The notes under the pieces: model-generated
The model's database searches: none
What the model was told of the DNA's origin: nothing
What the model saw: only the letters and a program-made list of their open reading frames with translations
In this document: positions 8,001 through 55,344 of the stretch, in pieces
How the letters are laid out: each line of letters starts with the position of its first letter
How positions within the stretch are numbered: position 1 is the stretch's first letter
Source of the DNA: Chrysomallon squamiferum
Lineage: Eukaryota; Animalia; Mollusca
Direction of reading: 5' to 3'
NCBI GenBank assembly: GCA_012295275.1
Contig: CM022669.1
Location: 12,090,001 to 12,154,000 of the forward strand
DNA: 64,000 nucleotides
Made by a program: the position numbers and the translations under genes

Positions 8001-8760
8001 ATGAAATGTTGGTATGGATTGATTTTTTTTTTTTTTTTAAATCTCAGGAAATGTTGTTCAGTATTTATACTTTAAAAAAGTGAAATATTAGTATGAACTG
8101 ATTCTTTATATCTCATTGAATCCTCATATTTATTGATGCTTGAAAAAAATTGATGTGGATGAATTCACTAAATCTCAGTAAATGATTATGAATAGTGATA
8201 GTTGAAAACTGAAATGTTATAGTGAATAGATTCTTTAAGTCTCAGAGAATGGTTTTAAGTATTTAAACTGAGAAATTTAGTGAAATGTTCATATTGATTG
8301 ATTCTTTAATTCTCATAGAATGATCTTAAAGTGCTGAGTTGTGAAATGTTGATATAGATTGATTCTTTGTATCTCGGTGAATTCTTTTGTGTATTGATAC
8401 TTGAAAAACAGTGAAATATTGATGTGGATCAATTCTTTGGATCTCAGCAAATGATGTTGAATACAGAAACTTCAAAAGAATGTAATGTTGATATGGATTG
8501 ATTATTTATATTTCACTGAATGCTGTTTAGTATTGAAATGTGCAAATGGTGAAATATTGATGTGGATTGATTCATTAATTCTCAGCAAATGTGTTAAGTA
8601 TTGAAACTTGAAAGCAGTGAATGCTTATATATATATTATGATGCTTGAAAACATAGTCAAATGATGGTGCAATACTTATATGGATGAACACTTGAAAACT
8701 TAAACTGTTGTGTAGTTACTCTTTAAAATTCAGTGAATGGCTGTTAAGTACTGAAACTTG
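8001..8760. repeat. Degenerate ~70-bp tandem array (about 9-10 units) downstream of the GLD-2 stop
   Basis: Recurring GTGAAATGTTGATATGGATTGATTCTTT..ATCTCAG..AATG......GTATTGA.ACTTGAAAA; unit starts near 8002, 8081, 8141, 8210, 8281, 8342, 8412, 8481, 8550, 8618. Confidence 0.8.
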
Positions 8761-9991: not shown

Positions 9992-11615
9992 CTATGTATC
10001 TTCGTTCGGCTGTATTTCATCTCCAGGAACTTTGTTTGGGTGCATTTCATCTCCAGGAAGTTTGATCGGGTGCATGTCATCATCTCCAGGGCCTTTGTTC
10101 GTGTGCATTTCATCTCCAGGGACTTCAGCATGCTCCTGAGGTGAGACACCTTTTACGTTTCCCGGTGAACCACCTTTGATCGCCCATTCTTGCTGCTTCT
10201 TAGGTTTCTTTGGCTTTTTCGTAGTCGCCGGTTTATCATAATTTTTTCTAGTCCGCGATCTATTACTTTTCACATATCCAGATTCCATGACGGTGTCTAA
10301 ACCCACTTCTTCATAGTCTTTCTCCAAAGCAGCAAGATCTTCGCGAGCTTCGCGAAATTCGTCCTCCTCCATCCCTTCCCCTATGTACCAGTAGACGAAA
10401 GAACGCTTGGCGTACATCTTATCGAATTTGTTGTTCAGAACAGCGAAGGGTTCGGCGATTGCTGTGGTATTGCACATCATGCACAGTGAACGGTTGACTT
10501 TGGGCAGATCACCGTGCGGTACTGCTGTTGGTGGTTGGTAGTTGATACCAACCTTAAAACCTGTCGGACACCAGTCTACAAATTTGACGTATGACCCAGC
10601 TTTGGCATCGATAATTGCTTTATTTACATCCTTTGGTGTTACATCACCGCGGTACAACATGCAGCAGGCCATGTATTTCGATTTCGACGGATCGCATTTT
10701 ACCATCTGGCTGTCGAGACTGAAAGTTTGCCGTGTCAGCGATTTAATCGAAATTACCTTTTTGAATAAATCCTCTTTTGTAGCGATCGGCGCATATGTCG
10801 CTAGTGGAAAGTGGATTCTTGGGTAAGGCACCAAGTTAGTTTGAAATTCCGTCAGGTCTACGTTGAGAGCTCCGTCGAAACGAAGAGATGCAGTGATGGA
10901 ACTAACCACCTGGCCAATCAGCCGGTTTAAATTAATGAAATTTGGTTTTTTAACTTTGAGTCTCTTATTACACATATCATAGATTGCCTGGTTATCAATA
11001 AGAAAGCTGACGTCAGAATTTTCTAGAGTAGTATGAGTTGTTAGGATAGAATTGTAAGGCTCTACGACTGCCGATGAAATATTAGGAGACGGATATACGG
11101 AAAATTCCAGCTTGGATTTTTTCCCATAATCTTCTGAAAGGTGTTCCATGAGGAGCGAGGTAAATCCAGACCCGGTTCCTCCACCAAAACTGTGAAAAAC
11201 TAGGAAACCCTGCAGACCGGAGCAAAGATCGGCCACCTTACGGATTCTGTCCAGAGCTAGTTCTATTATCTCCTTACCAACAGAGTAACGACCACGAGCA
11301 TAATTATTAGCTGCGTCTTCTTTGCCTGTGATTAGTTGTTCTGGATGAAACAGATGTCGATAGCTTCCTGTTCGCACTTCATCTGTCAGGGAGAAAGGAT
11401 TAAAAGGAAATGATGTATAACGCTGTGGTGTGTATGTCTGTCTATATATCTACTACGAATATTATTTAAAGAATTTTTCAGGCCGAACGGGAAAGACGAA
11501 CCACTATTATTTCAGTCAGTTAGACTAAAAGTTAGCTTATCTTTAAACATATGCTGTTATTATTGCTGTTGTCGCTAATGTTAATACATCAGTCAATAGA
11601 TTTTATTTTCAGTCA

Positions 11616-11648
<33 letters not shown>

Positions 11649-12166
11649 TTATCATACCTATCACGGTTGGTTCCAAGTCTACAAAAATTGCCCGAGGAAC
11701 GAACTTTCCCGATCCCGTCTCACTGAAGAACGTTTCAAAGCTGTTATCGCCAGTGAAAACGTTTCTGCGTTTAGAAAGAAGACCATTGCGCTTGATTCCG
11801 TGCTCAAGACAGTACAGTTCCCAGCACGCGTTCCCGATCTGACATCCAGCTTGACCAATATGGACACTGATACATTCCCTCTGAAAAAAATAGTCATGAC
11901 CATAGAAAAATATGTGAATACTACTGAACATTATTAATAACTGCCTAAAGTTTCATCTGATTCGGATATCAGGTAAAGGCATATTTTGCGTCGTGATAAA
12001 TAACAACGACAATAATACAAATCGATAATCATACACATCACTTCGAATTTAAGCCATGCAAGATTCATATAAATACGTAGCAGACCTCCATGTCTATGCT
12101 TCTATCATCTATCTATCTATCTATCTGTCTATCTATCTATCCATCTATCTGTCTATATATATATAT

Positions 12167-12200
<34 letters not shown>

Positions 12201-12420
12201 CATACATATATATGTTAGTGTGTGTTTTTAACAGTAAATCAATATCTGTATCTACCTATCTATCTAGCTGTACACACACACACACACACACAAATATGTA
12301 TATATATTTAAAAGTAAACAAATATTAAAAACAAATAACAAAATTAATAATAAATAATGAATATATATATATATATATAATCTTCTTAGCGGAATAAAAA
12401 TCTTTGAAATCACTTACCAT
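9992..12420 (-). CDS. Divergent alpha-tubulin 1 (538 aa) with long C-terminal extension
   Basis: Exons 12418-12420 (ATG only, followed by GTAAGT), 11658-11880 (223 nt, typical of animal alpha-tubulins) and 9992-11382. MRECIS start, GGGTGSG signature, [38 protein letters not shown]. Confidence 0.95.
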
Positions 12421-12648
12421 TATAAAAGTCAGTCGGATTCCTAGATGTTTTTTTTTTCCCCTCACGACTCTTAAGGGAGGGTTTTTATTATGTAACTGAA
12501 TGTATCAGTGTATTCGCCAAAAATTTAGTAAAACAAAATCTTTGTTGAAGATAAAAAAAAGAAAAGAAAAATAAACAAAAGAAAAGAAAGGAAAAGTTAC
12601 TAAATCAAAATGTAGAAAAAAACAAATAAAACTGACGTAATTCATATA

Positions 12649-12656
12649 TGACGTCA
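12649..12656. promoter_or_regulatory. Palindromic CRE (TGACGTCA) about 230 bp upstream of tubulin 1 ATG
   Basis: Perfect 8-mer; variant sites TGACGTAA (12633) and TGATGTCA (12683) nearby. Function not shown. Confidence 0.45.
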
Positions 12657-14095
12657 CGTACCAAAAGGGTGTATCGCTAATGTGATGTCACACTGATTTT
12701 ATAATATAATCTTTTGAATGTGTAAACAAACAAACAAAAAAACTTGTTGTTCACTGTATATTAATTATTATAGAATATTTTGACAGTTTATCATTTAGAT
12801 TATGTTCTTGGTGAACCAGCGTCAACACTGTAACTTCCGAATAAATACACCATCCGTTTTTACCACGATGTGACCCAGGCAAAATAAAACACACTTTTAT
12901 CCTTGTTGTTGAATATTCATTGCACAAATTAATTTAATTAGAAGAAAATAAAATAAAATAAATCTCAGTTACATTTTAAGTTAACGTAGCATCGAGACAG
13001 GTTTCTGTCATAATATCATTTTAGATTTCAACAGCTACATTTAATAAGATTCTTTTCGTTATTATTATTTATTTATTTACTTATTTATTTTTGTTTGTTT
13101 ATTAAGAGAAGAAGAATCGGAAACTCTTTTCCGATTAGCAGGGGATACTTTTATACTGTGGATTCCAATATCATTTTGAATATGGAGTCCTTCATGGAGC
13201 CATTGACCTTTTATCAACTCCTTTCATTTCTTGTAATTAAGAAAAATAAAAATAAAATTATTAAAAAGAGAATGCCTTATCGACAACAACAACAACAACA
13301 ATAATAATAATAATATAGAAAGTTTGCTCGACGTCATTAAAGGGAGTGAGTTTTGAGAATTACTGAGCTAGATCAGAGAGCTTCGTAGCCTTTTTCAGCA
13401 GACGAAATGTACTCCCTGGAAATAAATTAAGCCCATATTAGGAAACCTTAAGCTAAAGTGTTCAAAAAGAATCAAATACATATAGCATGTAGGATGCTGA
13501 AGCAGTAATAGGTTTTAACATTGTCTTCATTATGTATAAGAATTTTTATCACAAAAAAAAACATAACATAGGGCTTCCTCGATTTACAGTTCGTTTACTT
13601 TCTGTTGACGTTGCATGAATGAGAATACACGTATCGAAATAACATTAATTCATAATAGTACCTCATTATTAAAAGACTCGATCATATAATGCTTGTTTCA
13701 TAAAAATGATTCCGTCATAAGGTTTGTGAAAAATCATCCGTTTAGAGATACTGAATAATCACTTAAATAAGGTAACTAAATTACCATTTCCGATTTCATA
13801 TAATTATTAGTAACATTTTATACATAAATCTTTTTTGGTTGAAGAATGATAGTTTCTTTGGACATGGAAATAGATGCTAATTAATTGCCATTGCTATTAC
13901 TAATTAAATACCTTTAATGCTTATCTAACCTAATCTTATAATTTCTTAAAACACGGTTCACAGCAACATTTTATGATCAGCAAGCTATTGCAGGACTTTA
14001 TATATATATATATAAAAAAAGTTCACATACACACATAAATACACACCCACCCACCAACACACACACACACTCACTCACACGCACACACACACACA

Positions 14096-14134
<39 letters not shown>

Positions 14135-14510
14135 GATTATGGCACAGTTTCAATGATGATTTGATAAATAATTAAAAAAGAATAGCACAAAAACCTTGGG
14201 CTACCACACTTGTTGAAATAAGTAATATTTGTTGGCATGTTTTCTTAACTTTTTCCTGAATTTCCATCACTTTTTTCATCATATCTATTTTCTCTGTCCA
14301 ATTAAAAAAATGCCCATTTCCATCATTTTAAGATTTTGTGACCAATGGTTACTCTTTAATAACATTTTATTTTATTTTTTTTTTTTTTTTTTTTTTTTTT
14401 AACGATACCCTTCGGTGAAATAATCGAGTTAAAGTGTATACTGTATATATTTCCGCTTCCGTCATATTTTATAAACGTGTGAGAGTGTGTTGTGTGTTTA
14501 CGAGTTTGTG

Positions 14511-14582
<72 letters not shown>

Positions 14583-14889
14583 AGAGAGAGCAAACTCATA
14601 ATCAAACATAATTCAATCATAAATTAATTAAATAATTCAACAGAAATAGCAGCAAAATAATATTTTATTACTTTTAATAATTAATCTAAGTTAATAACTT
14701 TATAATATTTTACGTATTACCTTTTAAAGTCATAAACTTTTATTGTAATTAGAATATATATGTATTTAAAGAATATAAATTTAAAAAAAATAATGTTTAT
14801 CACAATGGAAAAACATTGTATAAACTTAAATATAGTTTCGCTTTCTGCATTTTTCAAAATATTCCTGTGACATCCGTTTCTAAATCAGC

Positions 14890-16081
14890 CTATCTCTTTA
14901 CAGACTTATTCAAAGATTTCTTGATATTTTGTCGGCTCGCTATCTGCGACTTCTTTTGCTTTGGCGTCTCTGACTGCATGACAGTGTCTGCAGACACCTC
15001 TTGATAGTCTTTCTCCAGAGCAGCAAGATCTTCGCGAGCTTCTTGAAACTCGTCTTCATTCATGCCTTCCCCGATGTACCAGTGGACAAAAGAGCGCTTG
15101 GCGTACATGAGGTCAAACTTGTGATTCAGACGAGAGAAGGGCTCGGCAATGGCTGCGGTATTGCTCAGCATGCACAGTGCCCGGTTGATCTTGCCCAAAT
15201 CACCGCCGCGAACTACGGTGGGCGCTTGGTAGTTGATACCTATCTTAAAACCTGTCGGACACCAGTCTACAAATCTGACATCGGTCCCGTTTCTTATGTT
15301 GTTAATTGCTCTGTTTACGTCCTTTGGTGTGATGTCACCGCGATATAACATGCAGCAGGCCATGTATTTCGACTTCGTCGGATCGCACTTCACCATTGCG
15401 CTCTGAAGTTGAAAGATTTGCTGCGTTATCGACTTAATAGATAATTTCTTTTTTGGAGCTTCTTCTTTCGAAATGATAGGAGAAAATGCAGCCAATGGAA
15501 AGTGGATTCTTGGGTAGGGAACCAAGTTAGTTTGAAATTCCGTCAGGTCTACGTTGAGAGCTCCGTCGAAACGAAGAGATGCAGTGATCGCACTGACTAC
15601 CTGGCCAATCAGACGGTTCAGATTAGCATATGATGGTCTGTCCACTTTGAGTCTCTTATTGCACAGTTCATAAATAGCCTCGTTGTCGATAAGAAAGCTG
15701 CAATCGGAATATTCCAGGGTGGAATGAGTTGTCAAGATGGAATTGTAAGGTTCTACGACTGCCGTGGAAACCAGAGGAGACGGGTAAACAGCGAACTCCA
15801 GCTTGGATTTTTTCGGATAATCATGTGAAAGTCGTTCCATAAGGAGCGAGGTAAATCCAGACCCGGTTCCTCCACCAAAACTGTGAAAAACTAGGAAACC
15901 CTGCAGACTCGCGCACAGATCGGCCACCTTACGGATTCTGTCCAGAGCTAGTTCAATTATCTCCTTACCAATGGAGTAATGACCACGAGCATAATTATTA
16001 GCTGCGTCTTCTTTGCCTGTGATTAGTTGTTCTGGATGAAACAGATGTCGATAGCTTCCTGTTCGCACTTCATCTGGTGAA

Positions 16082-16136
<55 letters not shown>

Positions 16137-16229
16137 TAATAATCTTGGTTTTGTTAATTTCGTTAATTTTATTTTATTTTATTTTACTATTTTTTTATTT
16201 TTTTACGTCTTTATTATTATTATTATTAT

Positions 16230-16264
<35 letters not shown>

Positions 16265-16738
16265 TTATTAGTAGTAGTAGTAGTAAATTTAGCTGGAAGT
16301 TCAGATCAGTTACAATTCTTCGATTTGGTTCCTGAGAAGAAATTTTAAAATACCTATCACAGTTGGTTCCAAATCTATGAACACTGCTCGAGGAACGAAC
16401 TTTCCCGATCCCGTCTCACTGTAAAAGGTATCGAAGCTGTCGTCCCCGATGCCAATATTTCTTCTTTTAGAAAGCAGCCCGTTTCGTCTGATTCCATGTT
16501 CAAGACAGTACAGCTCCCAGCAGGCGTTGCCGATCTGACAACCAGCTTGACCAATATGGACACTAATGCATTCCCTCTGAAAACAGTTTTAACGAATTAC
16601 CGATATTTTACATTCCGAGTACGTGTAAATGTCAGCCCACAGTAAACAACTGCAGAAACGTTATGTTGCCTAATGCACATGGCCTTAATTACATCGAGGC
16701 AAACGAGGCGAATTGACGATTTTTATTTAATTATTAAA

Positions 16739-16771
<33 letters not shown>

Positions 16772-17088
16772 GATTTTATTTTAAAATATATAAAATATAA
16801 ACCCCAATCCATTCCGATAGAAACGATATCCACTGAATGAATTCGTTTATGTCTACGGTTACCGTTTGAAGTCTACCGATATTCGTTACGGTCATGGTGT
16901 TTAAGTTAGGGGACGATTAAGTGTTTCTGCTTCGTTTCAAAAAGAGTCTAGTTATGGCCATTTAATAGGCTATAAATTATTAATATACAAAAAAAAAATA
17001 AAAAATTGGTATTTCATTAATAAAAGAAATATGCAGATAATTTGTATTGTTAATGTTTATAATTATCAACATTTAGAATACATACCAT
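14890..17088 (-). CDS. Divergent alpha-tubulin 2 (469 aa) with basic C-terminal tail
   Basis: Exons 17086-17088 (ATG|GTATGT), 16354-16576 (223 nt) and 14890-16073; same alpha-tubulin motifs; ends ...[10 protein letters not shown]. Confidence 0.95.
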
Positions 17089-17128
17089 TATGCAAAAAGA
17101 CTTGAGATGCGCTCTCGTCCCTGATCTA

Positions 17129-17136
17129 TGACGTCA
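17129..17136. promoter_or_regulatory. Palindromic CRE (TGACGTCA) about 40 bp upstream of tubulin 2 ATG
   Basis: Perfect 8-mer read directly. Confidence 0.4.
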
Positions 17137-17797
17137 CCCATTATCTACCTTAACAACAACTCGTTACTTTCTATCTGTTCTATATATATTTTTATTCACA
17201 TGTATGAACAAACACAATCACACGCGTGCACGTTAACAAATACATATCATAGAGAAAGACAGAGATTAATAGTGTATTAAAAAGATCTAAACTGAAATAA
17301 TACAATAATTACTCGATAAAAAAATATACAAATTGTCCATGAAATAAACCATGCAATTAAGATTATAATAGTAATTATAATAGATAGATAGGTATACTGC
17401 AGATAGACTAATAGATCAGAGAGACAGACAGAGATGATAAAAATAAAACGCCAAGAAAAGCAACAAAAAAAAAAGAGTAAATGTTTTTTTTTTTTTTTTT
17501 TTTTGCTAAACAATTTTTCAAATTGTATAGTATTTATATTAAAGAAAATAGGTACGAAGGTAAAAAATCTGATATATCATAGATATTCTATATTTTAAAA
17601 TGAAAAGAACAAGTGAAAAATAAACTAGAAGTATTTATTAGTCCATAAATACAACAGGGTTTATATATTTTTTAAATATCATTACATTCTGGACTTGTTT
17701 GGGTTTGATGGAACTAAAGTAACGTGTTTCTGTTATTTATTTATTTAATTTATTATTATTTATTATATATATATTTTTTTTTTTTTTTTTTTTTTTT

Positions 17798-17931
17798 TTA
17801 TGGTGGCAAGGGACAGTTAGGATCCTGCATACATTTTGACCAGTACTCGTTTTGTTCCTTGGCGTAAGCTTCATCAACGCACGTGTAAGGTGGACAGCAA
17901 ACACCGGTCATAGGACGGTAACAGGATAGAC
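17798..17931 (-). CDS. Duplicate (alternative) terminal exon 5b of the Cys-rich secreted protein gene
   Basis: Acceptor TTCTTTCAG, 134 nt, same phase and length as exon 23542-23675; encodes (G)LSCYRPMTGVCCPPYTCVDEAYAKEQNEYWSKCMQDPNCPLPP*; 30/44 aa identical, all 6 Cys kept. Confidence 0.85.
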
Positions 17932-19018
17932 CTGAAAGAAAATAAAAAAGATGTCACTAAAATCAGCGTAGTTAAAAATCTCTCGTCCAGTGAGAATTCG
18001 TCATTTACTGCCGTGAAATAAAAGTTACTCCAGCTGAATAATCAGTGACTTCTCTCACTAAAAGAGACTTGGGATGGATATGGTAAGGAGATTAAAACGT
18101 ATTTTAAGTTTATCTGTTATACTTTATCTCCGTTCTATTTTCAAATGGCATCAATTGAGCGAGTTTAAATATAGATGGTTTCGACCAGTAATATTTATTT
18201 AACATATAGCAGTCGTAAATTCAAATACAAAATGGTACTCGTCTTCGACAATATTCATATGACACATTTGACCATTTCATTTGGTCGTTCAGTATTATGA
18301 CAGACACTTTTTCACACTTTTCAAAAACAGTTCTATGTTATTTACATCTTGACTGTGCCAAACCTGTCCAAAGCCTTAGTTAGACAAAAAGCCAGTTACA
18401 ACCACAATGACACCGAAGCGTATCTTCAAAAAGTGATTTCAAAAATGCAATTCCCTGTTCTTAAAAGTTTTAACCGATATTTAATTATTCTTATTTTTCT
18501 AACAACATATAAACGAACTTCTACGGAGTTCAGATAACATTACAAGATCTGAAGCGATTTTCTTAACATTTAAAATTCTCTTGCAGAAATTCGTACGAAT
18601 CTTTCAACATCTTGAACAGAATGGAAATCCCATATTTCACAACAGTAATTTAAAACATTGGAAACGCACTTACCAAACAACGCGCAACTTCGTTTCAGTA
18701 TTAAGTGACAGTTTATTTATTACATAAACTCAGAAATAGCCACATACATTTCCCACGTTGAGATAGGCGATTACCTTCTGTGTTTTTGTGAATTTACTAT
18801 TAAAATCTAGTGTAGAATTAGTGGAAGCGGTAGAACTAGTAGTATTATTTGAGTTATTTTTATTGGAAAGCCTGACGCTGACTCACGAGTTTGGGTGTAA
18901 ACCGCCAAATCTATTATTTTTATTAATCTTAATAAAGCAAGACACACACACGGATCAGTAATGCACAGTGAGAAAAAGGCAGACGCAACACTTATAAATA
19001 TATGATTCTATTATAACA

Positions 19019-19049
<31 letters not shown>

Positions 19050-19104
19050 TAATGTTTATAAATTCCAGATTTAAACTTCAGTTTATACACTATATATAGA
19101 AGAA

Positions 19105-19167
<63 letters not shown>

Positions 19168-20001
19168 CACGCCAACACAAACCCAAAGCACGCAGACCAA
19201 CGCACACTCATATACAGAAATATGCGCACGTGCACGCTCACGTAAATACAGGCGTTTTAGTTTAATTCCTGCTTTATCATCATCATCATCATCATTATTT
19301 TGTTCATTTGTTGCTTGTTTGGTTACATAACAAAATAACGAAGTCTAGTTCATATTTCTATAAAATTTATTTATTGTCCATTATTTAAGAAGAAAGAATC
19401 TATCTAAATCTAACAAACATGCAAGACTGACTGTCTGTGACGTTATGTAAAGTTTTTTTATTTTAAGCAAAGAAAAAATCCGCTCTATATTTTATAGCTT
19501 TATATTTTAAAAAATTACGAATTTGTAAATATATGTATATATATAATAATATTTAATATATACTCAACTATAAATGGTACTTTTTTTTTAAATTTTAAAT
19601 TAATGTATTATTTTATGCCAAACTATTTATGATTCTAGCGAACAAGATAACTATAAAAAAAAAAAGAAGGGGGGTACCTCCATTTTAAATAAATAATCTC
19701 GAATATATTTATCGTAAATACATAATAATAGTATATAATATTAAAGTGATTATATAAATAACGCCATTAATCTATTTTAGTCGTATTTCGTCAAGCAGTT
19801 TCGTTATATATATACATAATTATATATATATTTCTAACATGATGCTGATTGTAACATACATTCCTTTTTATAATTATCATTTTTCTGATTTCATTTATTC
19901 ACCATAACAACAACAGCAACAAAATGTCCTTTACGTTTGTGTCTTGTCTTTCGTTTAAATCCTATCGTTCGTCATGTTCAGTCTTGTGTCCTTGTGGATT
20001 C

Positions 20002-22503
20002 TCACATGTCTTCAGATTCAGTGGTTTCCATTACCGTGTCGACGGCCACCTCCTGGTAGTCCTTCTCCAGAGCGGCCAGGTCCTCGCGGGCTTCGTGGAA
20101 CTCGCCCTCCTCCATCCCCTCGCCGACGTACCAGTGGACGAAGGAGCGCTTGGCGTACATCAGGTCGAACTTGTAGTTGAGACGGGACCACGCCTCTGCG
20201 ATGGCCGTCGTGTTGCTCAGCATGCAGATGGAGCGGTTCACTTTGCCCAGTTCGCCGCGTGACACGTAGTAAGGCGGCTGATAGTTGATGCCCACCTTGA
20301 AGCCCGTGGGGCACCAGTCGACGAAGTTGATGCCCGTTTTCTTTTTCATTGAATTGATGGCGTGGTTGACGTCTCTCGGTATGACGTCGCCGCGGTACAG
20401 CATGCAGCAGGCCATATACTTACCTTGGGTGGGATTGCACTTGACCATCTGGTGATTCTGGCTGAACGTCAGCCTTGTGATGTCCAGCGTGGACAAGGTT
20501 GTTTTGAAAGCTTTTTCCTTTGACATGATGGGCGCAAGCGTCGCCAGCGGAAAGTGGATTCTGGGGTAAGGCACCAGGTTGGTCTGGAACTCGGTCAGGT
20601 CGACGTTGAGTGCTCCGTCGAACCGGAGAGACGCCGTAATGGCGCTGACCAGCTGGCCAATCAGACGGTTCAAAGTGATGTACCTGGGGCTGTCAACGGC
20701 AAGTTTACGGCGGCAGAGGTCAAAGCAGGCTTCGTTGTCGATGAGGAAAGCGCAGTCGGAGTTTTCCAGGGTCGCGTGCGTGGTCAGGAGGGAGTTGTAC
20801 GGCTCGACGACAGCCGTGGACAGCTGAGGAGCCGGATACACCGCGAACTCCAGCTTCGACTTCTTCCCGTAATCAGTGGTAAGATGATCCATTAGCAAGG
20901 TCGTAAATCCAGACCCTGTGCCTCCTCCGAAGCTGTGAAATATAAGGAAGCCCTGAAGGCCCGTGCACAGGTCGGCCACTTTGCGGATTCTGTCGAGGAC
21001 TAGCTCGACGATTTCTTTCCCTGTCGTGTAGCGACCACGTGCGTAGTTGTTGGCTGCGTCTTCTTTACCCGTGATCAGCTGCTCCGGATGGAAGAGGTTT
21101 TTATAGCTGCCGGTTCTGACTTCATCTTGAGAAAATAAGAATAAGAATAATTAAAAAAAAAAATAATAATAAAATAAACAAATTCATTCATTCATTTAAT
21201 AATTAACCAGCTAACTAACTAACTAACTAACTAAATAAATAAATAAATAAAATTCAAAGACCACTTTCTAAATTAATGATTTCTCCTCAGAAAGAATAAT
21301 GATTTTCTGAACCGATATAATATATGTACTGTAGACATACAGTGGCACTTATATATTAGTATATATATTGATTTTCGATTACTTTAGTCAGTATAACCCT
21401 GACATACCAATAAATAAATAAATAAATACATATATAATATGATATGATGATAAGATAAAATGCGTTCAAACAGTGATAAACGAATACTGAGTAATAATCT
21501 ACTAGAGTCCAGTATTAATTAAATGACCAATGTGCAAAGAAGGCCTGAAATAATTATTTTGTGTTTAATTCCTTTTCAGTATAAATTTGTTTTAAAAAAT
21601 GCTGTATTTAAATTGTTCAATATGTGGCACAAAGCGCTATGTTTCAGACTTCCTTAGCCCTGTACAGTGTCGAATCATAATATAAAAATATTTTGTATTT
21701 ATTTGTTTATTTTTAATTTTTTTCAGGACTTCCCAAACCAATTTTAGTAGGAAAAAAAAAAAAAAAAAAAAAATTATAAAAGTTATATATATATATATAT
21801 ATTACAAAACAACCCACTGTAGGAATTGCAATGAATAAAATAAATTAAAATATCGGTTATTTCAAGAAATATTTTTAAAGTTTTGTACTAATATTGGTTT
21901 GGAGGTATTCAGTTTGATTCGTATGTTTTGTCAAAGCTGTTTTGAAATGATTACAACGCAGCTCGAAATGCTTATCAAAAGCTGGGGTGTGCAGTTTGCT
22001 TTGCAAAGATGCATATAAAAGGTTCAAAGCAGACCATACTACGATATTTCTTATCTCACATCAAGACAGTGAAACTCTTTCCTCTTTCTCATTTTTAAAT
22101 TTTGTTTTCTCCCTCTTTAATATTAAATTACCGAGACGTCGTTAAATCATTCGTGCCTTTCGTTACTCACCAATAACAGTTGGTTCAAGATCTACGAAGA
22201 CGGCACGCGGCACGTGCTTGCCGTTTCCCGTCTCATGAAAAAAAGTACTGAAGGAGTCATCGCCATCTCTTACGCGTTTTCTCTTGGTAGACATCAGCCC
22301 GTTTCGTCTGATTCCATGTTCAAGACAATACAGTTCCCAGCAGGCGTTGCCAATTTGACAACCAGCTTGACCGATATGAATGCTAATACATTCCCTCTGA
22401 AAAATATATATTTTTATTTCATAGTTCATGAAAAAAAAAAAAAACTTTAATATATTTTTATTTATTATTTATTACACATTTCAGTTACTGTGCAAAACAC
22501 ATG

Positions 22504-22579
<76 letters not shown>

Positions 22580-22713
22580 AAATACTGTTATAATTTATTA
22601 TCGTTAAACAGAAATGACAGAATTATTATGTTTTATTAAAATAGTTATGAATGATATAAATTAATCCTAAATATTCATATATAATAAAGAACTCTCTCGT
22701 CAGTACTTACCAT
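20002..22713 (-). CDS. Divergent alpha-tubulin 3 (450 aa)
   Basis: Exons 22711-22713 (ATG|GTAAGT), 22171-22396 (226 nt, one extra codon in the luminal loop) and 20002-21125; ends ...[15 protein letters not shown]. Confidence 0.95.
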
Positions 22714-22786
22714 TATAATTGTAATTTTTCGATACTCGACGTTGAAATCAGAAATATATTTTTATTCGTTTTATATATGTTCACCA

Positions 22787-22942
22787 TGACGTCATCGTCA
22801 TCCTCGCAGTTGTGGATGACGCTTATGAGTAGAATTTCGCGTAAAATAGTTTCCAATGGTAATCGCTTCAAAAATTTCTTTCTTCGTTAAAAACGCCTTG
22901 TAGTGAAATAACGTTAGAACTGTATGACGTCAAATGACGTCA
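22787..22942. promoter_or_regulatory. Three palindromic CRE sites upstream of tubulin 3
   Basis: TGACGTCA at 22787-22794, 22925-22932 and 22935-22942 (the last two one helical turn apart). Confidence 0.55.
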
Positions 22943-23541
22943 AAATCATAGTCCCAGCACTGATAACAATAACACGAATAATTCAGCAACAAATCAAATT
23001 TTCGGAAAGGACCCAAATAATTATTTTAAATAAAGTTTGAAATACTTAAATAATTCATAAAAGATTAGTTAGCTAAAGATTAATAAGATTTTGTTTGTAT
23101 TTTTGAACTTATTTTTTAAAAACTATTGTATTAATATTGTCAGTAATGTCGAACGTAACACTGGAAACAAGTGCTCCGAAAACCGTGACAAAAAAGAAAT
23201 TATAATAATAATTAAATAAATAAACAACAACAACAACATCAACAGCAGCAGTTATAATAACAATAACAATAATTTAAATATGAAAAATTAATAAAATTTT
23301 GATATATTAGACGACATTATGTCTTATCAACGGAAGGTGCCAAGTCAACGTAAAGAGCCTAATGTTATGTGTAACAGCATAGCCAGTGCAGCATTTAGAT
23401 GTGTATATAAACCATCATATAATTTCAGCCTTTTTTTTTTTTTTTTGTATTATAATTTTCTATTAAAAGTGATAATTACGACTATGACTCATTTGCAAAC
23501 ACTTTTGCTCAAGATTTAGCTTTTATTTTACTTTTTCGATT

Positions 23542-25329
23542 TTATACGGGTAAAGCACATTTAGGATCTGAAAAGCAGTTTGCCCAGTATTCTCTTTGTT
23601 TTTCAGCGTAAGCGGCGTCTACACACGTGGACGGTGGACAGCAGATGCCGGACATTGGGCGATAGCAGGACAAACCTGAAGTAACAAGAGTACCACGCAT
23701 TTTGAACACTGTGAGGAAATGTCACCATAAACAGTATAATAACTAACTAAGTAAGAAAGGCGTTTTCTCACTGGGGAGAGCATGGATGGTGTTGTGAATG
23801 TTTATCTTGTTTTCTTTTTAGAACTATCCTGAATTTTAGAACAATGTTTGAATAAGAAGTGAATTTGTTAATTTATAAAAGATAGATAAAAAAGAACAAA
23901 GAAAAAGAAAGAAAGAAAGAAAGAAAAGAAAAGAAAAAGAAAAAAGAAGCTTACAACACAAATAAGACACAGACTAATAAAAAAACAAAATTAAAAAAAT
24001 CAACATATCAGATAATAAAAAGTCAAACACAGCTTAAGAGTAGCGAAATGGTAATAACAACAGGTACATTCTCAAGACAGACAGCTTAATAATTCATATC
24101 CGTTTAGTATACATCAGATAATTTTAGGAGAATAAAAATATTACTTCTTGACAAAGAATGTACGAATGTATGTATGTATGTATGTGTGTAGCGCACCTTT
24201 TTTAATGAGTGAATTTGTCAAGAAAATCGATGGAGGTTTTTTGCAGTGTTTGTTATTAAAATAAGGCTACTTTAGTGATAGAATCATAGGCCAAAGGGTT
24301 GCAGTTCTTAATACAGGGGTGCCCCCACCCTTATTCAGCTTGCGAGCTACTTTTAAAACGAACAGGTCAAAATGATCTACCTTGTGAAAAAATGCTAAAT
24401 ATATTTATTTATATATGCACTGAGTAAACTTTATATATACAGTATATCTTGACGCACCGTGCATCACTGCATGGACCCTCACAGCACAATACAACTGAAT
24501 AGATTTAAGAATATTTGTTTGTTGTTTATTTTAAAGTTTACCTTCCTTGCACTGAACGGCGTGCGATCTACCCCCACTATATTGGCGACTGACGTACTGG
24601 GCAGCCCCACCTTAGAATATGCTTTAATACTCATTTCATGTGGCCAAAACATTTCTCTGCAATTGGTCAAATTTCTAAATTTGGGACCTTGTTGCCCTTT
24701 TGTTGCTGATCCCTAAAAATCGTTCAAACTTCAGGGTCCCAAAAATGTTGGTCCGCAAGTGAATAAACATACCCACAGAATATACCTACTAGTACTAACA
24801 CGCACACGCTAAAAATATCGCTCTTTTAAAAGAACTGAACGAATACTAAAATGTTTAAAAGGGTTAGGTTTCCATAAAAAAAAAATTATATGCTTTTAGA
24901 TGTGCTTCTCTATAACGCACTTATAATATAAACCCTAAAAACTGCAGAAAAAACAAGCGAATACCAATGACGACAACAATAATAACAACATTAGTAATAA
25001 CAAGAATTGGAGAAGAAGAAGAAGAAATTACACATCAAAACATTACGTGACATGCTTTGTCCATCCCAACAGGAAAACGGAAACAATAAAGATAAATATG
25101 GGCAACAGCTTGTATAATTTATGTATCTTTGTCTGTTTCTCTGTCTCAAATGTCACCTAGAGGCCTCCATTAACGCTTCAGATATAATTTAGAAATACAT
25201 TAGTAACGTAATTTTCAGGTGATTCTTCATATATCAGATACTAAAACAATTAAAGCGTAACAAACTCAGCATGGAGACGAAACTCTATTAAACAAACACA
25301 CAAACAAACGAATATAGATAATGATGATG

Positions 25330-25398
<69 letters not shown>

Positions 25399-25449
25399 GT
25401 AATAGTAATAATAATAATAATAATAATAGTAGTAGTAGTAATAGTAACA

Positions 25450-25483
<34 letters not shown>

Positions 25484-26123
25484 TATAAATAAATAAATAA
25501 ATAATAACAGTAACAACAATAATAACAGTAATAAAATAGAATTAAATCTCAAACTAGAGATTTTTAAAAATTTAGCTATATCCTGAATCTGCTTTTCTTT
25601 TTTTTTTTGTTTAATCTTCACTTCACAAAATTTACATTAGACGCGTACACCGAAATTGTTTAAAAAACAAATATTTAGTTAGACTTACCTGCATCACACT
25701 TGCAAGTGCTATCACACATTTCACCTTTCTGAGCCTTTCCAGGTACACATGTTCCTGAGTGAGTTTGCCCAAATTCAGGTCCGCCTACGACACAAACCTT
25801 ATATTAATTCTTCATGTGCTTCAATTAAGCGACAAAATTAACATTCCCCCTACCCCATTATTTTAAAGTTTATTCAGTACGAAATGACGTCATCATACAA
25901 CACATCCATAATATTATTCATCTAGATATTACAGAATATATTTTTCCGAAATATAATAGTAATACATTCTTATTTCAATAATATTAATGATATTAAAAGT
26001 AGTAGTAGTAGCAGCAGCAGTACTAGTAGTACTAACAGCAATACCAGTAGCAGTAACATTAGAGCAGTGATTATTAGTATTAATAAACAATATTTTTACA
26101 TTATTGTATTAATTAATTAATTA

Positions 26124-26162
<39 letters not shown>

Positions 26163-27000
26163 CAGTTTTAAACCTACCGAACGGACCTCCGGGACCGTTG
26201 CCTTCTGCAGTTGAAATCACGTGATTGTTAGAATCACGGCAGCAGTGATTTGCACCGCACGAATAAGAACTGGTACATGTTTCTGCAGCCTAAACAGATT
26301 GTAAATAAAACAGATTAATGCAGTAATACAGACTAACAAAAAATATAAAAGAATAGTTAATAAAAATGTAAAAGAAAACAAAAGAAACTATATAAATAAC
26401 TAGATGAATAAAAATTATATAAATAGTTAAAATAAAATAAACGATTCAATGAACAGTTATAATGTTGAATATCGTTAATAAAGGTTTTTTATTTGTTTGT
26501 TTTATTTTCGATTTATATTAAGTTTAACATACTTTATCATCATTATTCTAAATAAAATATAAATAAATAAAAATTAATAATAATAATACCATGGCCTACG
26601 CATTTATCTTGCCAAAAGATTATCTACATCTGACATAAATCATGCCAGCTATGAGTCAGATAAATGTACCAGCTGGAATAGCAGCAGCAGCAACAACAAC
26701 AAACAACAACAACAACAATACTAAATAGATTTGTAAACATTTTATAAATACGGAGACCTTCGAGACAGGGAAAGATTATGTCAGATTTATTGAATAGCTA
26801 ACAGCCGTTTTGTTTGGGGTTGGTTTTATTTTATTTATTTATTTATTTATTTATATTTTATATTTTTTATTATTTTTTTTTGGGGGGAGGGAGGGGGAGG
26901 GGGCATGGCAAATTAATAAATAGAATTAACAAACAAAAAAATATAAGAAAGAAAAAAAGCTTATTTACCTGTGTGCCGCTTATAATTATAGCCTGAAATG

Positions 27001-27254: not shown

Positions 27255-27441
27255 AATTAATTAATTAAATTACAATAACTAATAATTATGATATAACAAT
27301 AATATTCATTTTTATAATACAAATCTAAAACAAATTTCTTTTTAATAATAAAATTTAAAAAGAAGAAAAAAAGGAAAGAAACAACAACAACAACAACAAT
27401 CAACTTACGGACACAAAAATAAAAGCAGCTTGTCGATACAT
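23542..27441 (-). CDS. Secreted 14-cysteine protein, prokineticin/colipase(MIT/AVIT)-like framework, 132 aa
   Basis: Exons 27409-27441, 26969-26992, 26178-26289, 25689-25784, 23542-23675 have GT-AG ends and join in phase (399 nt): MYRQAAFIFVSAIIISGTQA-AETCTSSYSCGANHCCRDSNNHVISTAEGNGPGGPFGGPEFGQTHSGTCVPGKAQKGEMCDSTCKCDAGLSCYRPMSGICCPPSTCVDAAYAEKQREYWANCFSDPKCALPV*. Kozak-like GCCATG and hydrophobic signal peptide. Not present in the ORF track. Fold assignment is from Cys spacing only. Confidence 0.88.
24314..24609. mobile_element. Degenerate Charlie/hAT-type non-autonomous DNA transposon in intron 4 of the Cys-rich gene
   Basis: Left end CAGGGGTGCCC, right end GGGCAGCCCCA (decayed inverted repeat), internal GCGAGCTAC/GATCTACC/GCGATCTACC subterminal motifs; TSD not clean. 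Confidence 0.55.
25320..25480. repeat. (AAT)n/(AGT)n compound microsatellite
   Basis: Read directly; source of the spurious poly-Leu ORF 25250-25621. Confidence 0.95.
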
Positions 27442-29257: not shown

Positions 29258-29565
29258 ATAATAATAATAATAGTGATAATAGTGATAAACGGGTTTTGAC
29301 ACAAACTAAACATGAATGAGTTGTACGTGTAACCTTTGGCAATTAGCGGGCACGACTGATTGATACGTATGTGTTTGGGTATGTGTGTGGGTTTGTGTGG
29401 ATGCGACTTCATAGATATTTATTTCTTTAAATATTTCTAAAATCAATTTTAATGGAAACTGATAGCGATTAAAGAATGTAATAATATATATAAATCTAAA
29501 AATATTCATAACTAAGTAAATAAATGTTTGAATTGCGATAGATTATTATAATACAGAAGAAAACC

Positions 29566-32510
29566 ATGTTCTTGCACTTGTTATGCTATTTTGTAAGTAT
29601 GTATAATAAACAATTTAATATTATCTATTCAACTAATGATTCCTTTAAGTTAACAGTGCTTTGGATATTAGCATCAGAAATTAAAAGTAATTAAATCATT
29701 ATAAATAGATTTTGAGGTCTTCTTTACGAATTATCTCCCCATTTTGTATGACAGCATTATCTCCCATTAGTTATGGTGGGAAACGAACAAAAATGGGTGA
29801 ACGTTATTATTCTAATTTTGGTTCAGGTTCTCAGTTCTTTGACATCAAACATAGATGGTATTAATATTATTATTATTATTACTATAATATTATTTATGTA
29901 AAAATACCAGAAGAGAACGACTGAATTTGACGTCTTATCAGTTACTCTGTTTATTCAGTAAATTACTGAGTAATTCTAATTCATTAAATGAGTAATTGTT
30001 ATCATTAATGATTAATCCATTATGATTTGTATGAAACGATTATTTATATTATGTCATTATGATAGTGATGGTTACTATGTATTTATCATACATTTTTTTA
30101 TATTATTATTATTATTATTATTATTATCATTCAGTCAGTATCGTCATTGAAAAAATGATTTATTTCCTTGTACAGAAGTATTTACTATATATTCATAATA
30201 TTGTCATCCTCAACCCTTTATGCTGTTTTGATCAAATTAGTGAGAATGACCTTTATAAGAGCACACTGTAATCACCTGATCAGTTTGATACTTTGTATCT
30301 CATTCAGTTAACATCAGATTCAGTCAATAAAATAATTATAGCATAAACTGATAAAGGTAAAATTAATATGCTTTTTCAACAAGACTGACGTTAGACTGGT
30401 AATGCTTTTATCAAATAATGGATTGATTTATTTTTGGTATAATTTTTAACATTTTTAAGAAAATTATTGTTTTAATTTAATTTGATTTACTATTATTATT
30501 AGTAGTAGTAGTAGTAGCATTATTTCTTTATTTGTTAAATCATTATTAGTGCAAATCTTTAAAAAGAAATTGTATCTTTTCTTAACTTTTTAATTTAATT
30601 TTTTTTTTTATTCATTTGGAGTATCTATGTAGTGTTTTTACACATATTTTGTATTTTATTTTATTTATTTATTTAAAAAAAAAAAATGGTAGGCAACACA
30701 GAAGATAATTCAGTATTGAGGATATCAACATCAACATCCACATCCACATCCACATCCACTGAAGTATCAACTTCATCATCATCATCTGCAGCTAACAACA
30801 AAACAGAAAAACCTAAACAAAGGTTACTGGTTTCTTCTCTGATAAACACCAGTGAGGTGTGTCCATCTGGAGTAGAATGCAGTATTCTTGGTGGAGACTG
30901 CATCTCGTGCATGTTCAATACATCCTGTGTTTATGGCAGTATCCAAACTGCTACATGTAGAGTGAGAAAAGGAGTTAACTGTACAGTAAGTACTGAATTT
31001 TTGTATTATATTATGTTTTATATATATATAAACACACATTCACAAATCAACAAGTGTTTTTTTAATGTGTTTTTTTATAAAGATACTATAAATTGTTGAA
31101 ATTTTGAAAATACTTTTCTAAAAAAGCCATTTTATTCGAATTTTAAATTATAAAAAATTAGGAATTATAGTTTGAATAAAATAATTTTATAGGAAATATA
31201 TTAAATCAAATTGCTAGCAATCTGATTGATTAATAATTAAAAAGAAACAATGTTCAAAAACAAAAATTAATAGATTACTTTCAGTCACACTAAAGGGAAC
31301 TTAACATAATATAATGTTTATCATTTTCTAAAATGATATATATCTTTTTTCTTCCAAATTATCTCTGGACATTAGGGTAACCACACATTTGAAAGAACAT
31401 ATCATTGTCGATACTGTTACCAGCTAGATTCCTGGCAGTACACATGTAATGCATCTTTGTGTCAAATAAACATTCCAAGGAAAACCTGGCCTGCAAGGCC
31501 TTTCTATACATCTCTGTGCACAGCAAAACATGAAGTTATCTGTATGGGTAAGTTTCATATGTATAAATGCATTATGCTGTAGGTCTTGACAACCAACATT
31601 ATTGTCTGATAATAAGCTAGTTTCAGTAATTCTGGGGAATATTGTTTTATTCTAAAAACAAAATGTAAATAAAAAAAAGAAAAAAAGATTTATTAAGAAA
31701 TCCTTGTTTTTGTGTGTGTGTGTGGTTTTTACAGATTAATACTTTTCAAGACAAGTTTTAAAGATCAGGGTAACAATTTAAAAAAAAACATTTGTCAGTA
31801 GGATAACCCATAATAATTCCTAACATCAAGTACTGTTTTTAATTTGTTTTGTATTTTTTTGTAAATGCTGACAGAATTGTGTACATTCTTTTAGGAAGAA
31901 GAAGATTTTACAAACAACGACTGTGTAATTGGACTAGAGGATACAAATGGTCTACTGCATTTATTCTGAGGTATTATTTCTTAATTAGCAGATGACACAT
32001 TTGTTAATTTCTTTTATTGTTCATAATGTGCTGCAACTAAGTTTACCAATGTTTACAGGTTTAATCAACCAATATGTTTGCATTATCAAAATCAGCAGTT
32101 AAGATAACTTACTTGTAAAGAAACTTTGTGTAATAATTTCTGAGCTATTATTTTTATCTTTTATTTTTCATTATTATTTTTTTTAAGTAACTGTTGTAGA
32201 TTTTAAAGGACATAAGACTAAATATTTTAATGTTAGAAAATCATTAAAAAATACTCCTGAAAAAAACCCAGCCATTGTGTAATCAGTATCAGTTCTGTTG
32301 CTTTATAATTATTTGAAAACGTCCATTTGTATTTAATATTCCAGTGTCACACTTGGAGGTTTTGGGGCAGACAGGTTTTATCTCGGTCTCTGGCGAGAAG
32401 GAATCGGAAAACTGTTTAGTTTTGGTGGTCTTGGTGTGTGGACATTGGTCGATGCCATCCTTATAGCTGTGGGTTATGTTGGGCCTGCTGACGGTTCAGT
32501 GTACATATGA
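29566..32510 (+). CDS. TM2D3: TM2 domain-containing protein 3 (almondex)
   Basis: Exons 29566-29592 and 29827-29857 (signal peptide MFLHLLCYFVLSSLTSNIDG; less certain), 30693-30985, 31376-31547, 31895-31970, 32345-32510. Cys-rich ectodomain (CRYCYQ, CNWTRGYKWSTAFILS) and TM2 domain TLGGFGADRFYLGLWREGIGKLFSFGGLGVWTLVDAILIAVGYVGPADGSVYI*. Confidence 0.92.
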
Positions 32511-33564: not shown

Positions 33565-48744
<15,180 letters not shown>

Positions 48745-55007: not shown

Positions 55008-55115
<108 letters not shown>

Positions 55116-55120
55116 TTTCC

Positions 55121-55344
55121 CTCTCCCTTTATTTCACCTATTGTGGGTCTTTTTCACTCCTACTTTTTCTCCCTGTCTTTTAATTTCCTGTCTTGCTTTC
55201 TGTTGTTCAGATTTGGAATCTAATATAAATACTTTACATCGCTGAATAAAACAGTATATCTTTAAAAATTTCTTTTTCTAGTCAATGTATGAAGATGGGG
55301 TTGATATTACTGCAAAAACAGAATATCTTTCTACCTTGGAGCAA
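55121..55344 (+). pseudogene. Inverted duplicate of AP5B1 intron 1 end plus part of exon 2
   Basis: Reverse complement of about 48068-48291; intron part appears identical, exon part has 3 substitutions; flanked by (CT)n and an A20 run. Confidence 0.9.

What the first reader, a model, noticed from the sequence alone, without database searches (positions are those of the whole stretch)
17798..25784. Two alternative last exons of a secreted Cys-rich gene straddle an entire same-strand tubulin gene
Exon 5a (23542-23675) and 5b (17798-17931) are both 134 nt, phase 1, with intact acceptors and stops. They share 30/44 residues, and 15 of those 30 codons differ synonymously, the signature of purifying selection on both. 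I found no copies of exons 1-4 between 5b and tubulin 3, so 5b seems usable only by splicing from the donor at 25689 over 5a and all of tubulin 3. Each exon sits 0.7-0.8 kb upstream of a tubulin ATG, implying an old ~5.7-kb [last exon + tubulin] tandem duplication that produced both a new tubulin and a variable C-terminus. Same-strand nesting requires read-through of two poly(A) regions, which may couple or mutually exclude the two genes.
Basis: partly seen in the sequence, partly recalled or inferred. Interest (0 to 1): 0.86.

Follow-up and report, generated by a model that had tools for sequence, protein, structure and literature searches.

The report
Spare gene ending beyond a tubulin
A small gene for a likely secreted, cysteine-rich protein, probably in a sea snail, has a second, well-preserved copy of its last exon on the far side of a complete tubulin gene and no other front end nearby, so it likely makes a second protein version by splicing over the whole tubulin gene, a joint that no RNA data here could confirm.

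Summary
Observation confirmed. A minus-strand five-exon gene encodes a 132-aa, 14-cysteine protein of an unnamed mollusc/brachiopod family (closest hits abalone). Its last exon occurs twice: 5a (23675-23542) and 5b (17931-17798). Between them lies an intact three-exon alpha-tubulin on the same strand. Both copies are 134 nt, phase 1 and under strong purifying selection (pS 0.68, pN 0.19, p=1e-6). A family profile finds exons 3 and 4 once in 64 kb, none beside 5b. 5b keeps 12 of 12 family-conserved residues; by simulation an unused 5b would have decayed within about 7% of its age. So 5b most likely borrows exons 1-4 by read-through splicing (0.55) or trans-splicing (0.1); recent loss of its own front exons or an assembly fault remains (0.22). 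The junction is not shown: the RNA contigs were uninformative. New here: abalones have whole-gene copies with near-identical heads and diverged tails, so a whole-gene origin is open, and the age match with the tubulins is near saturation. Duplicated last exons and same-strand nesting are both known; nesting by a boundary-spanning duplication is the unusual part. The scan noted analogous duplicated last exons in other genomes, not this locus.

The parts
27409..27441 (-). Cys-rich gene, coding exon 1 (ATG, start of the likely signal peptide)
   Evidence: donor GTAAGT
26969..26992 (-). Cys-rich gene, exon 2 (24 nt, rest of the likely signal peptide)
   Evidence: inferred from splice sites and frame, no transcript
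26178..26289 (-). Cys-rich gene, exon 3 (4 cysteines)
   Evidence: family profile 39 bits, single copy in window
25689..25784 (-). Cys-rich gene, exon 4 (4 cysteines), ends in a phase-1 CAG|GTAAGT donor
   Evidence: (52 bits, single copy)
23542..23675 (-). Proximal last exon 5a (6 cysteines, TAA); AATAAA at 23527
   Evidence: (94 bits)
23676..23708 (-). Possible in-frame 33-nt extension of 5a from a second AG
   Evidence: sequence only
20002..22713 (-). Alpha-tubulin 3 (ATG exon 22713-22711, 22396-22171, 21125-20002; 450 aa), the gene that would be nested; AATAAA at 19899
17932..20001 (-). Spacer between tubulin 3 and 5b with no family exon and no plausible own start
17798..17931 (-). Distal orphan last exon 5b (6 cysteines, TAA), strong acceptor (16 of 17 pyrimidines), several AATAAA behind it
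   Evidence: (89 bits)
14890..17088 (-). Alpha-tubulin 2 (ATG exon 17088-17086, 16576-16354, 16073-14890; 469 aa), partner of 5b in the duplicated unit
9992..12420 (-). Alpha-tubulin 1 (538 aa), younger copy of tubulin 2, with no exon-5 copy in front of it

Best explanation
Exon 5b is likely a live second last exon of the Cys-rich gene, reached when RNA polymerase would read past exon 5a and through the whole of alpha-tubulin 3, so that exon 4 would be spliced to 5b across a 7,757-nt intron and tubulin 3 would be a same-strand nested gene. Shown: one set of exons 1-4, two intact, selected, in-phase last exons, an intact tubulin between them. Inferred: isoform A (short intron, first poly(A) signal 14 nt after the stop) is the default; isoform B needs two poly(A) signals (23527, 19899) and three acceptors (23675, 22396, 21125) to be passed, helped by the stronger acceptor of 5b. 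Inferred by analogy with H13/Mcts2: when tubulin 3 is transcribed (probably in few tissues, such as testis) it would block read-through and favour 5a; when it is silent, 5b is open. The products would share signal peptide and eight cysteines and differ at 14 of 43 residues in the second half of a disulfide-knotted domain and its closing helix, probably changing partner specificity. Origin (inferred): one old tandem duplication of about 5.7 kb that cut through intron 4 and included a tubulin gene, or a whole-gene duplication followed by loss of the second exons 1-4.
For: Selection on both copies: pS 0.68, pN 0.19, p = 1.4e-6; 5a and 5b each keep 12 of 12 columns conserved in at least 90% of 20 homologues, and are equally close to abalone (73% and 70%). 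An untranslated 5b would pass this test in under 5% of simulations beyond 0.06 substitutions per site, against about 0.88 since the split (half of the corrected dS 1.76). Single copy of exons 3 and 4 in 64 kb, 36 kb of it upstream. No ATG in frame before either full-consensus donor in the spacer. Exon 5 is not a free-standing domain: in the model of the abalone homologue the knot-like part runs over residues 64-104, across the exon 4/5 border at 83/84, and it has no signal peptide. The phase-1 acceptor before exon 5 is in the same place in 4 of 4 metagenome loci. Abalones show the same outcome by another route: within species heads are 94-100% identical and tails 72-93%, although tails are the more conserved part between abalone and this gene (70-73% versus 55-57%). 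Same-strand nesting with host poly(A) choice is known (PMC13309782 abstract).
Against: No transcript evidence for the joint or even for expression of 5b. Read-through would meet well-formed tubulin exons: exon 4 to T3 exon 2 gives a stop after 92 aa, exon 4 to T3 exon 3 an in-frame 462-aa chimera; intron-bearing same-strand nested genes are under-represented in Drosophila (72.5% of same-strand nested genes are single-exon; PMC3814207 passages). Relatives use whole-gene copies, which raises the prior that 5b had its own front exons. The decay simulation is rough (F81 model, assumed indel rate, saturated dS). No relative's genome could be checked for synteny.
Confidence: 0.55

Rival explanations
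1. 5b is the left-over last exon of a whole second gene whose promoter and exons 1-4 were deleted recently (in the species, in this haplotype, or in the assembly). It looks selected because it was translated until then; nothing is nested.
For: The family is repeatedly found as neighbouring whole-gene copies: consecutive locus numbers in Haliotis rubra, Patella, Sinanodonta and Dreissena, a two-copy fused model in H. rufescens, an inverted pair in locus L004. No transcript of 5b was seen.
Against: The loss must fall in roughly the last 7% of the time since the split and have left no trace: no similarity between the spacer and the first copy's introns or exons. Collapse of two near-identical front ends in assembly would remove 5a and tubulin 3, not the second front end (inference). 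The window has no N.
Confidence: 0.22
2. 5b is used, but by trans-splicing: exon 4 of the Cys-rich pre-mRNA is joined to 5b carried on a separate RNA (tubulin 3 run-on transcript or a promoter in the spacer), as for variable last exons of Drosophila lola and mod(mdg4).
For: Explains selection on 5b without passing two poly(A) signals and two tubulin exons; trans-splicing of variable 3' exons is documented (PMC3228551 passages).
Against: 5b is downstream on the same strand, so cis-splicing is possible; trans-splicing of coding exons is called uncommon in the same paper.
Confidence: 0.1
3. 5b is joined to a different upstream part: tubulin 3 (its exon-2 donor at 22170 or an internal AAG|GTAAGT at 20423, both in frame), a non-homologous first exon in the spacer, or exons 1-4 of a family member beyond the window.
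For: Both tubulin donors are full-consensus and phase 1.
Against: A tubulin-5b chimera has no signal peptide and only half of the knotted domain, so the conserved cysteines would have no purpose (inference); spacer donors lack an in-frame ATG except inside a GT microsatellite; no family exon in the 36 kb upstream, where an unrelated gene faces the other way.
Confidence: 0.08

Closest known systems
Duplicated alternative 3'-terminal exons with separate poly(A) sites (human CAPZB; Drosophila PGRP-LC 3' cassettes; PMC3228551 and PMC6191721, passages read)
   Same: Homologous last exons of equal length and phase behind shared exons; proximal and distal poly(A) choice.
   Different: Here a complete, intron-bearing protein-coding gene lies between the two copies on the same strand; no docking/selector pairing was detected; use of the distal copy is not shown.
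Mouse H13/Mcts2 host/nested pair (PMC13309782, abstract read; PMC11694760, passages read)
   Same: Same layout for regulation: a host poly(A) site upstream of a nested gene and another downstream, with nested transcription favouring the upstream one.
   Different: Mcts2 is an inserted, imprinted retrogene (PMC3113556 listing; recalled) and the short host form is truncated; here both host forms would be full-length paralogous endings, and the nested gene is a three-exon tandem duplicate.
Same-strand nested genes of Drosophila (PMC3814207, PMC5174743, passages read)
   Same: Same-strand nesting exists (about 29% of nested genes), often narrowly expressed, 58% peaking in testis.
   Different: Described as arising mostly by insertion or de novo origin in long introns, mostly single-exon; here the host would have grown round its neighbour through a duplication across the gene boundary.
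Abalone paralogue arrays of the same uncharacterised family (e.g. XP_046564794.1 and XP_046564795.1)
   Same: Near-constant front half with two or three diverged tails beginning at the exon-5 border.
   Different: Annotated as separate whole genes; tubulin interleaving could not be checked.
Colipase / prokineticin / Dickkopf / draxin cysteine-rich fold group
   Same: Signal peptide, C-x5-C-x4-CC start, weak structural matches (colipase Z 4.2, draxin 3.6, Dkk1 3.4; IGFBP N-domain 5.4) and Atlas neighbours at 0.76-0.79.
   Different: 14 cysteines rather than 10, an added C-terminal helix, no Pfam hit at cut-off, no AVIT start (motif recalled).

Membership tests
Duplicated alternative last exons | Equal length, same phase, intact acceptor, homology | tested here: met
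   134/134 nt, phase 1, AG, 95/134 nt identical
Duplicated alternative last exons | Other exons not duplicated (not a tandem gene pair) | tested here: met
   single exons 1-4 in 64 kb
Duplicated alternative last exons | Each copy has its own stop and poly(A) signal | tested here: met
   TAA in both; AATAAA 14 nt after 5a and 33-56 nt after 5b, but background is 3.8 per kb
Duplicated alternative last exons | Transcripts join the shared exon to each copy | tested here: inconclusive
   0 contigs from 3 RNA runs on 17812-19010, but the DNA run also gave no cover of 5b
Same-strand nested gene | Complete inner gene on the same strand | tested here: met
   tubulin 3, 450 aa, three coding exons
Same-strand nested gene | Inner gene lies inside a spliced intron of the host | tested here: inconclusive
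   depends on the unshown exon 4-5b joint
H13/Mcts2-type transcriptional interference | Inner-gene transcription shifts host poly(A) choice upstream | not testable with these tools
   needs tissue or cell-level isoform data
PGRP-LC-type competing RNA pairing | Docking site pairing with selectors before each cassette | tested here: inconclusive
   best duplexes -21.9 (5a) and -20.5 (5b) kcal/mol; 2 of 15 and 10 of 15 shuffles reach them; one species, about 530-590 nt scanned per side
lola/mod(mdg4)-type trans-splicing | Variable exon on its own transcript, joined in trans | not testable with these tools
   needs allele-phased reads
Prokineticin/colipase/Dickkopf families | Pfam model at curated cut-off | tested here: not met
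   none for 4 exon translations or 26 family homologues scanned; best related hit Dickkopf_N 19.8 bits, cut-off 25
Prokineticin/colipase/Dickkopf families | Colipase-type fold | tested here: inconclusive
   Foldseek E 0.26-0.76, VIA Z 3.4-4.2 on the abalone homologue model
Alpha-tubulin (tubulin 3) | Tubulin and Tubulin_C domains; best matches alpha-tubulins | tested here: met
   152 and 122 bits; at most 78% identity among the 120 hits listed, nearly all named alpha-tubulin

The most novel reading that the evidence does not exclude
One duplication that cut through a gene's last intron created at a stroke a new tubulin, a second protein ending and a same-strand nested gene, and the tubulin's own transcription now acts as the switch that chooses which ending the secreted protein gets; this replaces the 'constant head, variable tail' whole-gene arrays seen in abalone.
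Probability: 0.25. Interest if true: 0.75.

Novelty: new variant of a known kind. Interest (0 to 1): 0.5.

Why it matters
If the joint exists, this is a compact natural case of nesting that arose without insertion: the host gained an exon beyond its neighbour. It would show that a three-exon gene with its own poly(A) signal can be skipped in cis and kept so for a very long time, against the general trend that same-strand nested genes lack introns. One RT-PCR pair tests it, and tissue data test whether the inner gene switches the host's ending, so far shown mainly for imprinted mammalian retrogenes. It also points to an unstudied lophotrochozoan family of secreted cysteine-knot proteins in which tail diversity on a constant head appears in two lineages by two routes. 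Gene predictors would likely miss 5b.

Tried and rejected
No whole genome is held, so copies outside the window and synteny were not searched. Run search found 3 RNA runs and 1 further run of the organism, with shares 0.17, 0.13, 0.01 and 0.67 of 1031 words; shares cannot be assigned to exons. Contigs laid on 17812-19010: 0 from each of the 3 RNA runs and one 43-nt repeat-like piece from the fourth; since the DNA-like run also missed 5b this says nothing about expression, and the stretch did not include exon 4. Protein database search with 5b for longer proteins: no candidate; the family profile search returned 14 proteins, none from this window, so neither isoform is on record and absence is uninformative. 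Tubulin 3 search for syntenic gastropod orthologues: none among the 120 listed of 6623. Tree of 23 exon-5 rows (43 columns): 5a, 5b and abalone tails unresolved, so I cannot say whether 5a/5b correspond to abalone tail types. Long-range RNA pairing: not above shuffles; the 25 longest of 790 inverted repeats are all low-complexity. Third exon-5 copy before tubulin 1: none. PDB sequence search: best E 0.16, draxin. Atlas search with 5a alone: no usable hit. Literature: no paper held all of 'nested gene, origin, partial duplication, terminal exon'; two searches gave nothing relevant in the listings; a search for family locus identifiers was swamped by a numeric term and none of the 20 listed papers held the identifiers. 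These searches cover only the open library, so they are weak evidence of novelty. No supplements were read.
Full report
What is there. The window is AT-rich animal DNA without N. On the minus strand a gene with exons at 27441-27409, 26992-26969, 26289-26178 and 25784-25689 ends exon 4 in phase 1. Joined in a script to either 23675-23542 (5a) or 17931-17798 (5b) it gives a 132-aa frame with a hydrophobic start and 14 cysteines. Three alpha-tubulins follow on the same strand: T3 (22713-20002, 450 aa) between 5a and 5b, T2 (17088-14890) and T1 (12420-9992), all intact with the same two introns.

The family. A search of 1.84 billion representatives with 5a gave 25 hits at E up to 0.001, one of them an unrelated repeat protein; the named ones are uncharacterised proteins of abalones, limpets, bivalves and Lingula, the best from Haliotis, so the organism is probably a gastropod (inference). 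No family homologue has a Pfam hit at cut-off. The model of the H. asinina homologue is confident (pLDDT 89) and weakly resembles IGFBP N-domain, colipase, draxin and Dickkopf (Z 5.4, 4.2, 3.6, 3.4; Foldseek best E 0.18), below the level at which a family can be named. The knot-like part spans residues 64-104, across the exon 4/5 border, so exon 5 is half a domain plus a helix, not a protein by itself (inference). In 4 of 4 metagenome loci an AG acceptor sits at the same phase-1 place.

Is 5b alive? Between 5a and 5b 68% of synonymous and 19% of non-synonymous sites differ (Fisher p 1.4e-6). Each keeps 12 of 12 columns conserved in at least 90% of 20 homologues (21 tried, 1 dropped for register), and 5b is as close to eight abalone tails (70%) as 5a (73%). 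In a neutral-decay simulation 5b kept its acceptor, frame and those 12 residues in 4.5% of 4000 runs at 0.06 substitutions per site (8% without indels) and in none at 0.4, against about 0.88 per branch since the split. So 5b was translated until very recently, or still is.

From what front end? A profile built from 25 non-window homologues finds exon 3 once (39 bits), exon 4 once (52 bits) and exon 5 twice (94, 89 bits) in 64 kb; the best scores in the 2,070-nt spacer before 5b are 1.1 and 4.3 bits. nhmmer and tblastn with the window's own exons agree. Of 62 donor-like sites between 5a and 5b, the two full-consensus ones in the spacer (18886, 18673) have no in-frame ATG, and two is what chance gives (1.4 expected); the only spacer sites with an upstream ATG are weak ones inside a GT microsatellite. 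Two donors in T3 (22170, 20423) are in frame with 5b but would give a tubulin fragment without signal peptide. This leaves exons 1-4 of the upstream gene as the only fitting partner in the window.

What was not shown. RNA contigs from 3 runs gave no cover of 17812-19010, but neither did the DNA-like run that holds 67% of the region's words, so the test is void; the stretch did not include exon 4. Neither isoform turned up in the protein collection. No genome was available. The joint therefore remains an inference.

How it would work. Default: exon 4 to 5a (2,013-nt intron), AATAAA 14 nt after the stop. Alternative: polymerase passes that signal and T3's single nearby AATAAA (19899), and exon 4 is spliced to 5b (7,757-nt intron). 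The 5b acceptor is richer in pyrimidines (16 of 17) than those of 5a (12) and T3 exon 2 (9), and T3 exon 3 uses AAG; this fits a weak-proximal, strong-distal arrangement but is a crude measure. Errors are possible: exon 4 to T3 exon 2 stops after 92 aa, exon 4 to T3 exon 3 is in frame. At mouse H13/Mcts2 transcription of the nested gene drives the host to its upstream poly(A) site (PMC13309782, abstract; PMC11694760, passages); by analogy T3 on would mean 5a, T3 off would allow 5b. T3 is a divergent tubulin (at most 78% to listed hits); narrow, perhaps testis, expression is a guess from such divergence and from Drosophila, where 58% of same-strand nested genes peak in testis (PMC3814207, passages). 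No PGRP-LC-type pairing stood out (PMC6191721, passages).

Origin. Exon and tubulin repeat with periods of 5744 and 5625 nt and similar spacers (829, 710 nt); no non-coding similarity survives. pS is 0.68 for the exons and 0.70 for T3/T2, both near saturation, while T2/T1 is younger (0.38) and has no exon-5 copy. One boundary-spanning duplication is the simplest history. A new observation complicates it: in four abalone species, copies within a species are 94-100% identical before the exon-5 border and 72-93% after it, and tail types match across species (H. asinina and H. rubra, 98%), the reverse of the between-lineage pattern (55-57% heads, 70-73% tails). These are annotated as whole genes. 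So constant head with variable tail recurs in this family, which supports a use for 5b, but it also makes whole-gene duplication with later loss of the second front end plausible. The tree could not tie 5a or 5b to abalone types.

Comparison and novelty. Homologous alternative last exons (PMC3228551, passages) and same-strand nested genes (about 29% of Drosophila nested genes, mostly single-exon and mostly from insertion; PMC3814207, PMC5174743, passages) are known. I found no paper on nesting created by a duplication across a gene boundary, in a library limited to open papers. Earlier notes of this scan describe duplicated last exons in shark POGZ and CRB1 (unchecked), and nothing at this locus or for this family.

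Verdict. Real, well-preserved architecture; cis read-through 0.55, trans-splicing 0.10, recent orphan or assembly fault 0.22, other partner 0.08, remainder unforeseen.

Noticed in passing
proteins P0001, P0066, P0073-P0079 (Haliotis): Abalone copies of this family have near-identical front parts within a species (94-100%) but diverged last-exon parts (72-93%) that match across species: looks like gene conversion of heads with retained tail types.
   Followed up: partly
window 23676-23725 (-): A second AG 33 nt upstream of 5a would add 11 residues in frame; it follows a GTGACAT motif also found 26 nt before the 5b acceptor (9 such motifs on this strand of the window).
   Followed up: partly
window 20002-22713 (-): Tubulin 3 has GC3 0.70 against 0.49 and 0.43 in its neighbours, and a full-consensus in-frame donor inside its last exon (20423).
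   Followed up: partly
window 9992-22713 (-): All three tubulins have a basic stretch near residues 31-44 in place of the usual loop and lack a terminal tyrosine (canonical features recalled); T2 and T1 have long basic C-terminal extensions, T1 with a 30-nt unit repeated 4.1 times at 10000-10125.
   Followed up: no
window about 29500-32450 (+): A multi-exon gene resembling TM2-domain protein 3 (label recalled from motifs, no call) faces away from the Cys-rich gene.
   Followed up: no
window about 4020-4300 (+): Exon resembling a GLD-2/TENT2-type nucleotidyltransferase (label recalled; only a weak OAS1_C hit, E 0.025), converging on the tubulins.
   Followed up: no
window 8030-8630: Imperfect tandem array with a 69-nt unit.
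   Followed up: no
L004 870-1001 (+) and 1771-1830 (-); L002: Two family genes tail to tail; in L002 and L004 the parts matching exons 3 and 4 lie in one open frame without an intron.
   Followed up: partly
window 48068-48388 and 55020-55344: A 325-nt inverted repeat pair, 97.5% identical, that includes a GA microsatellite.
   Followed up: no
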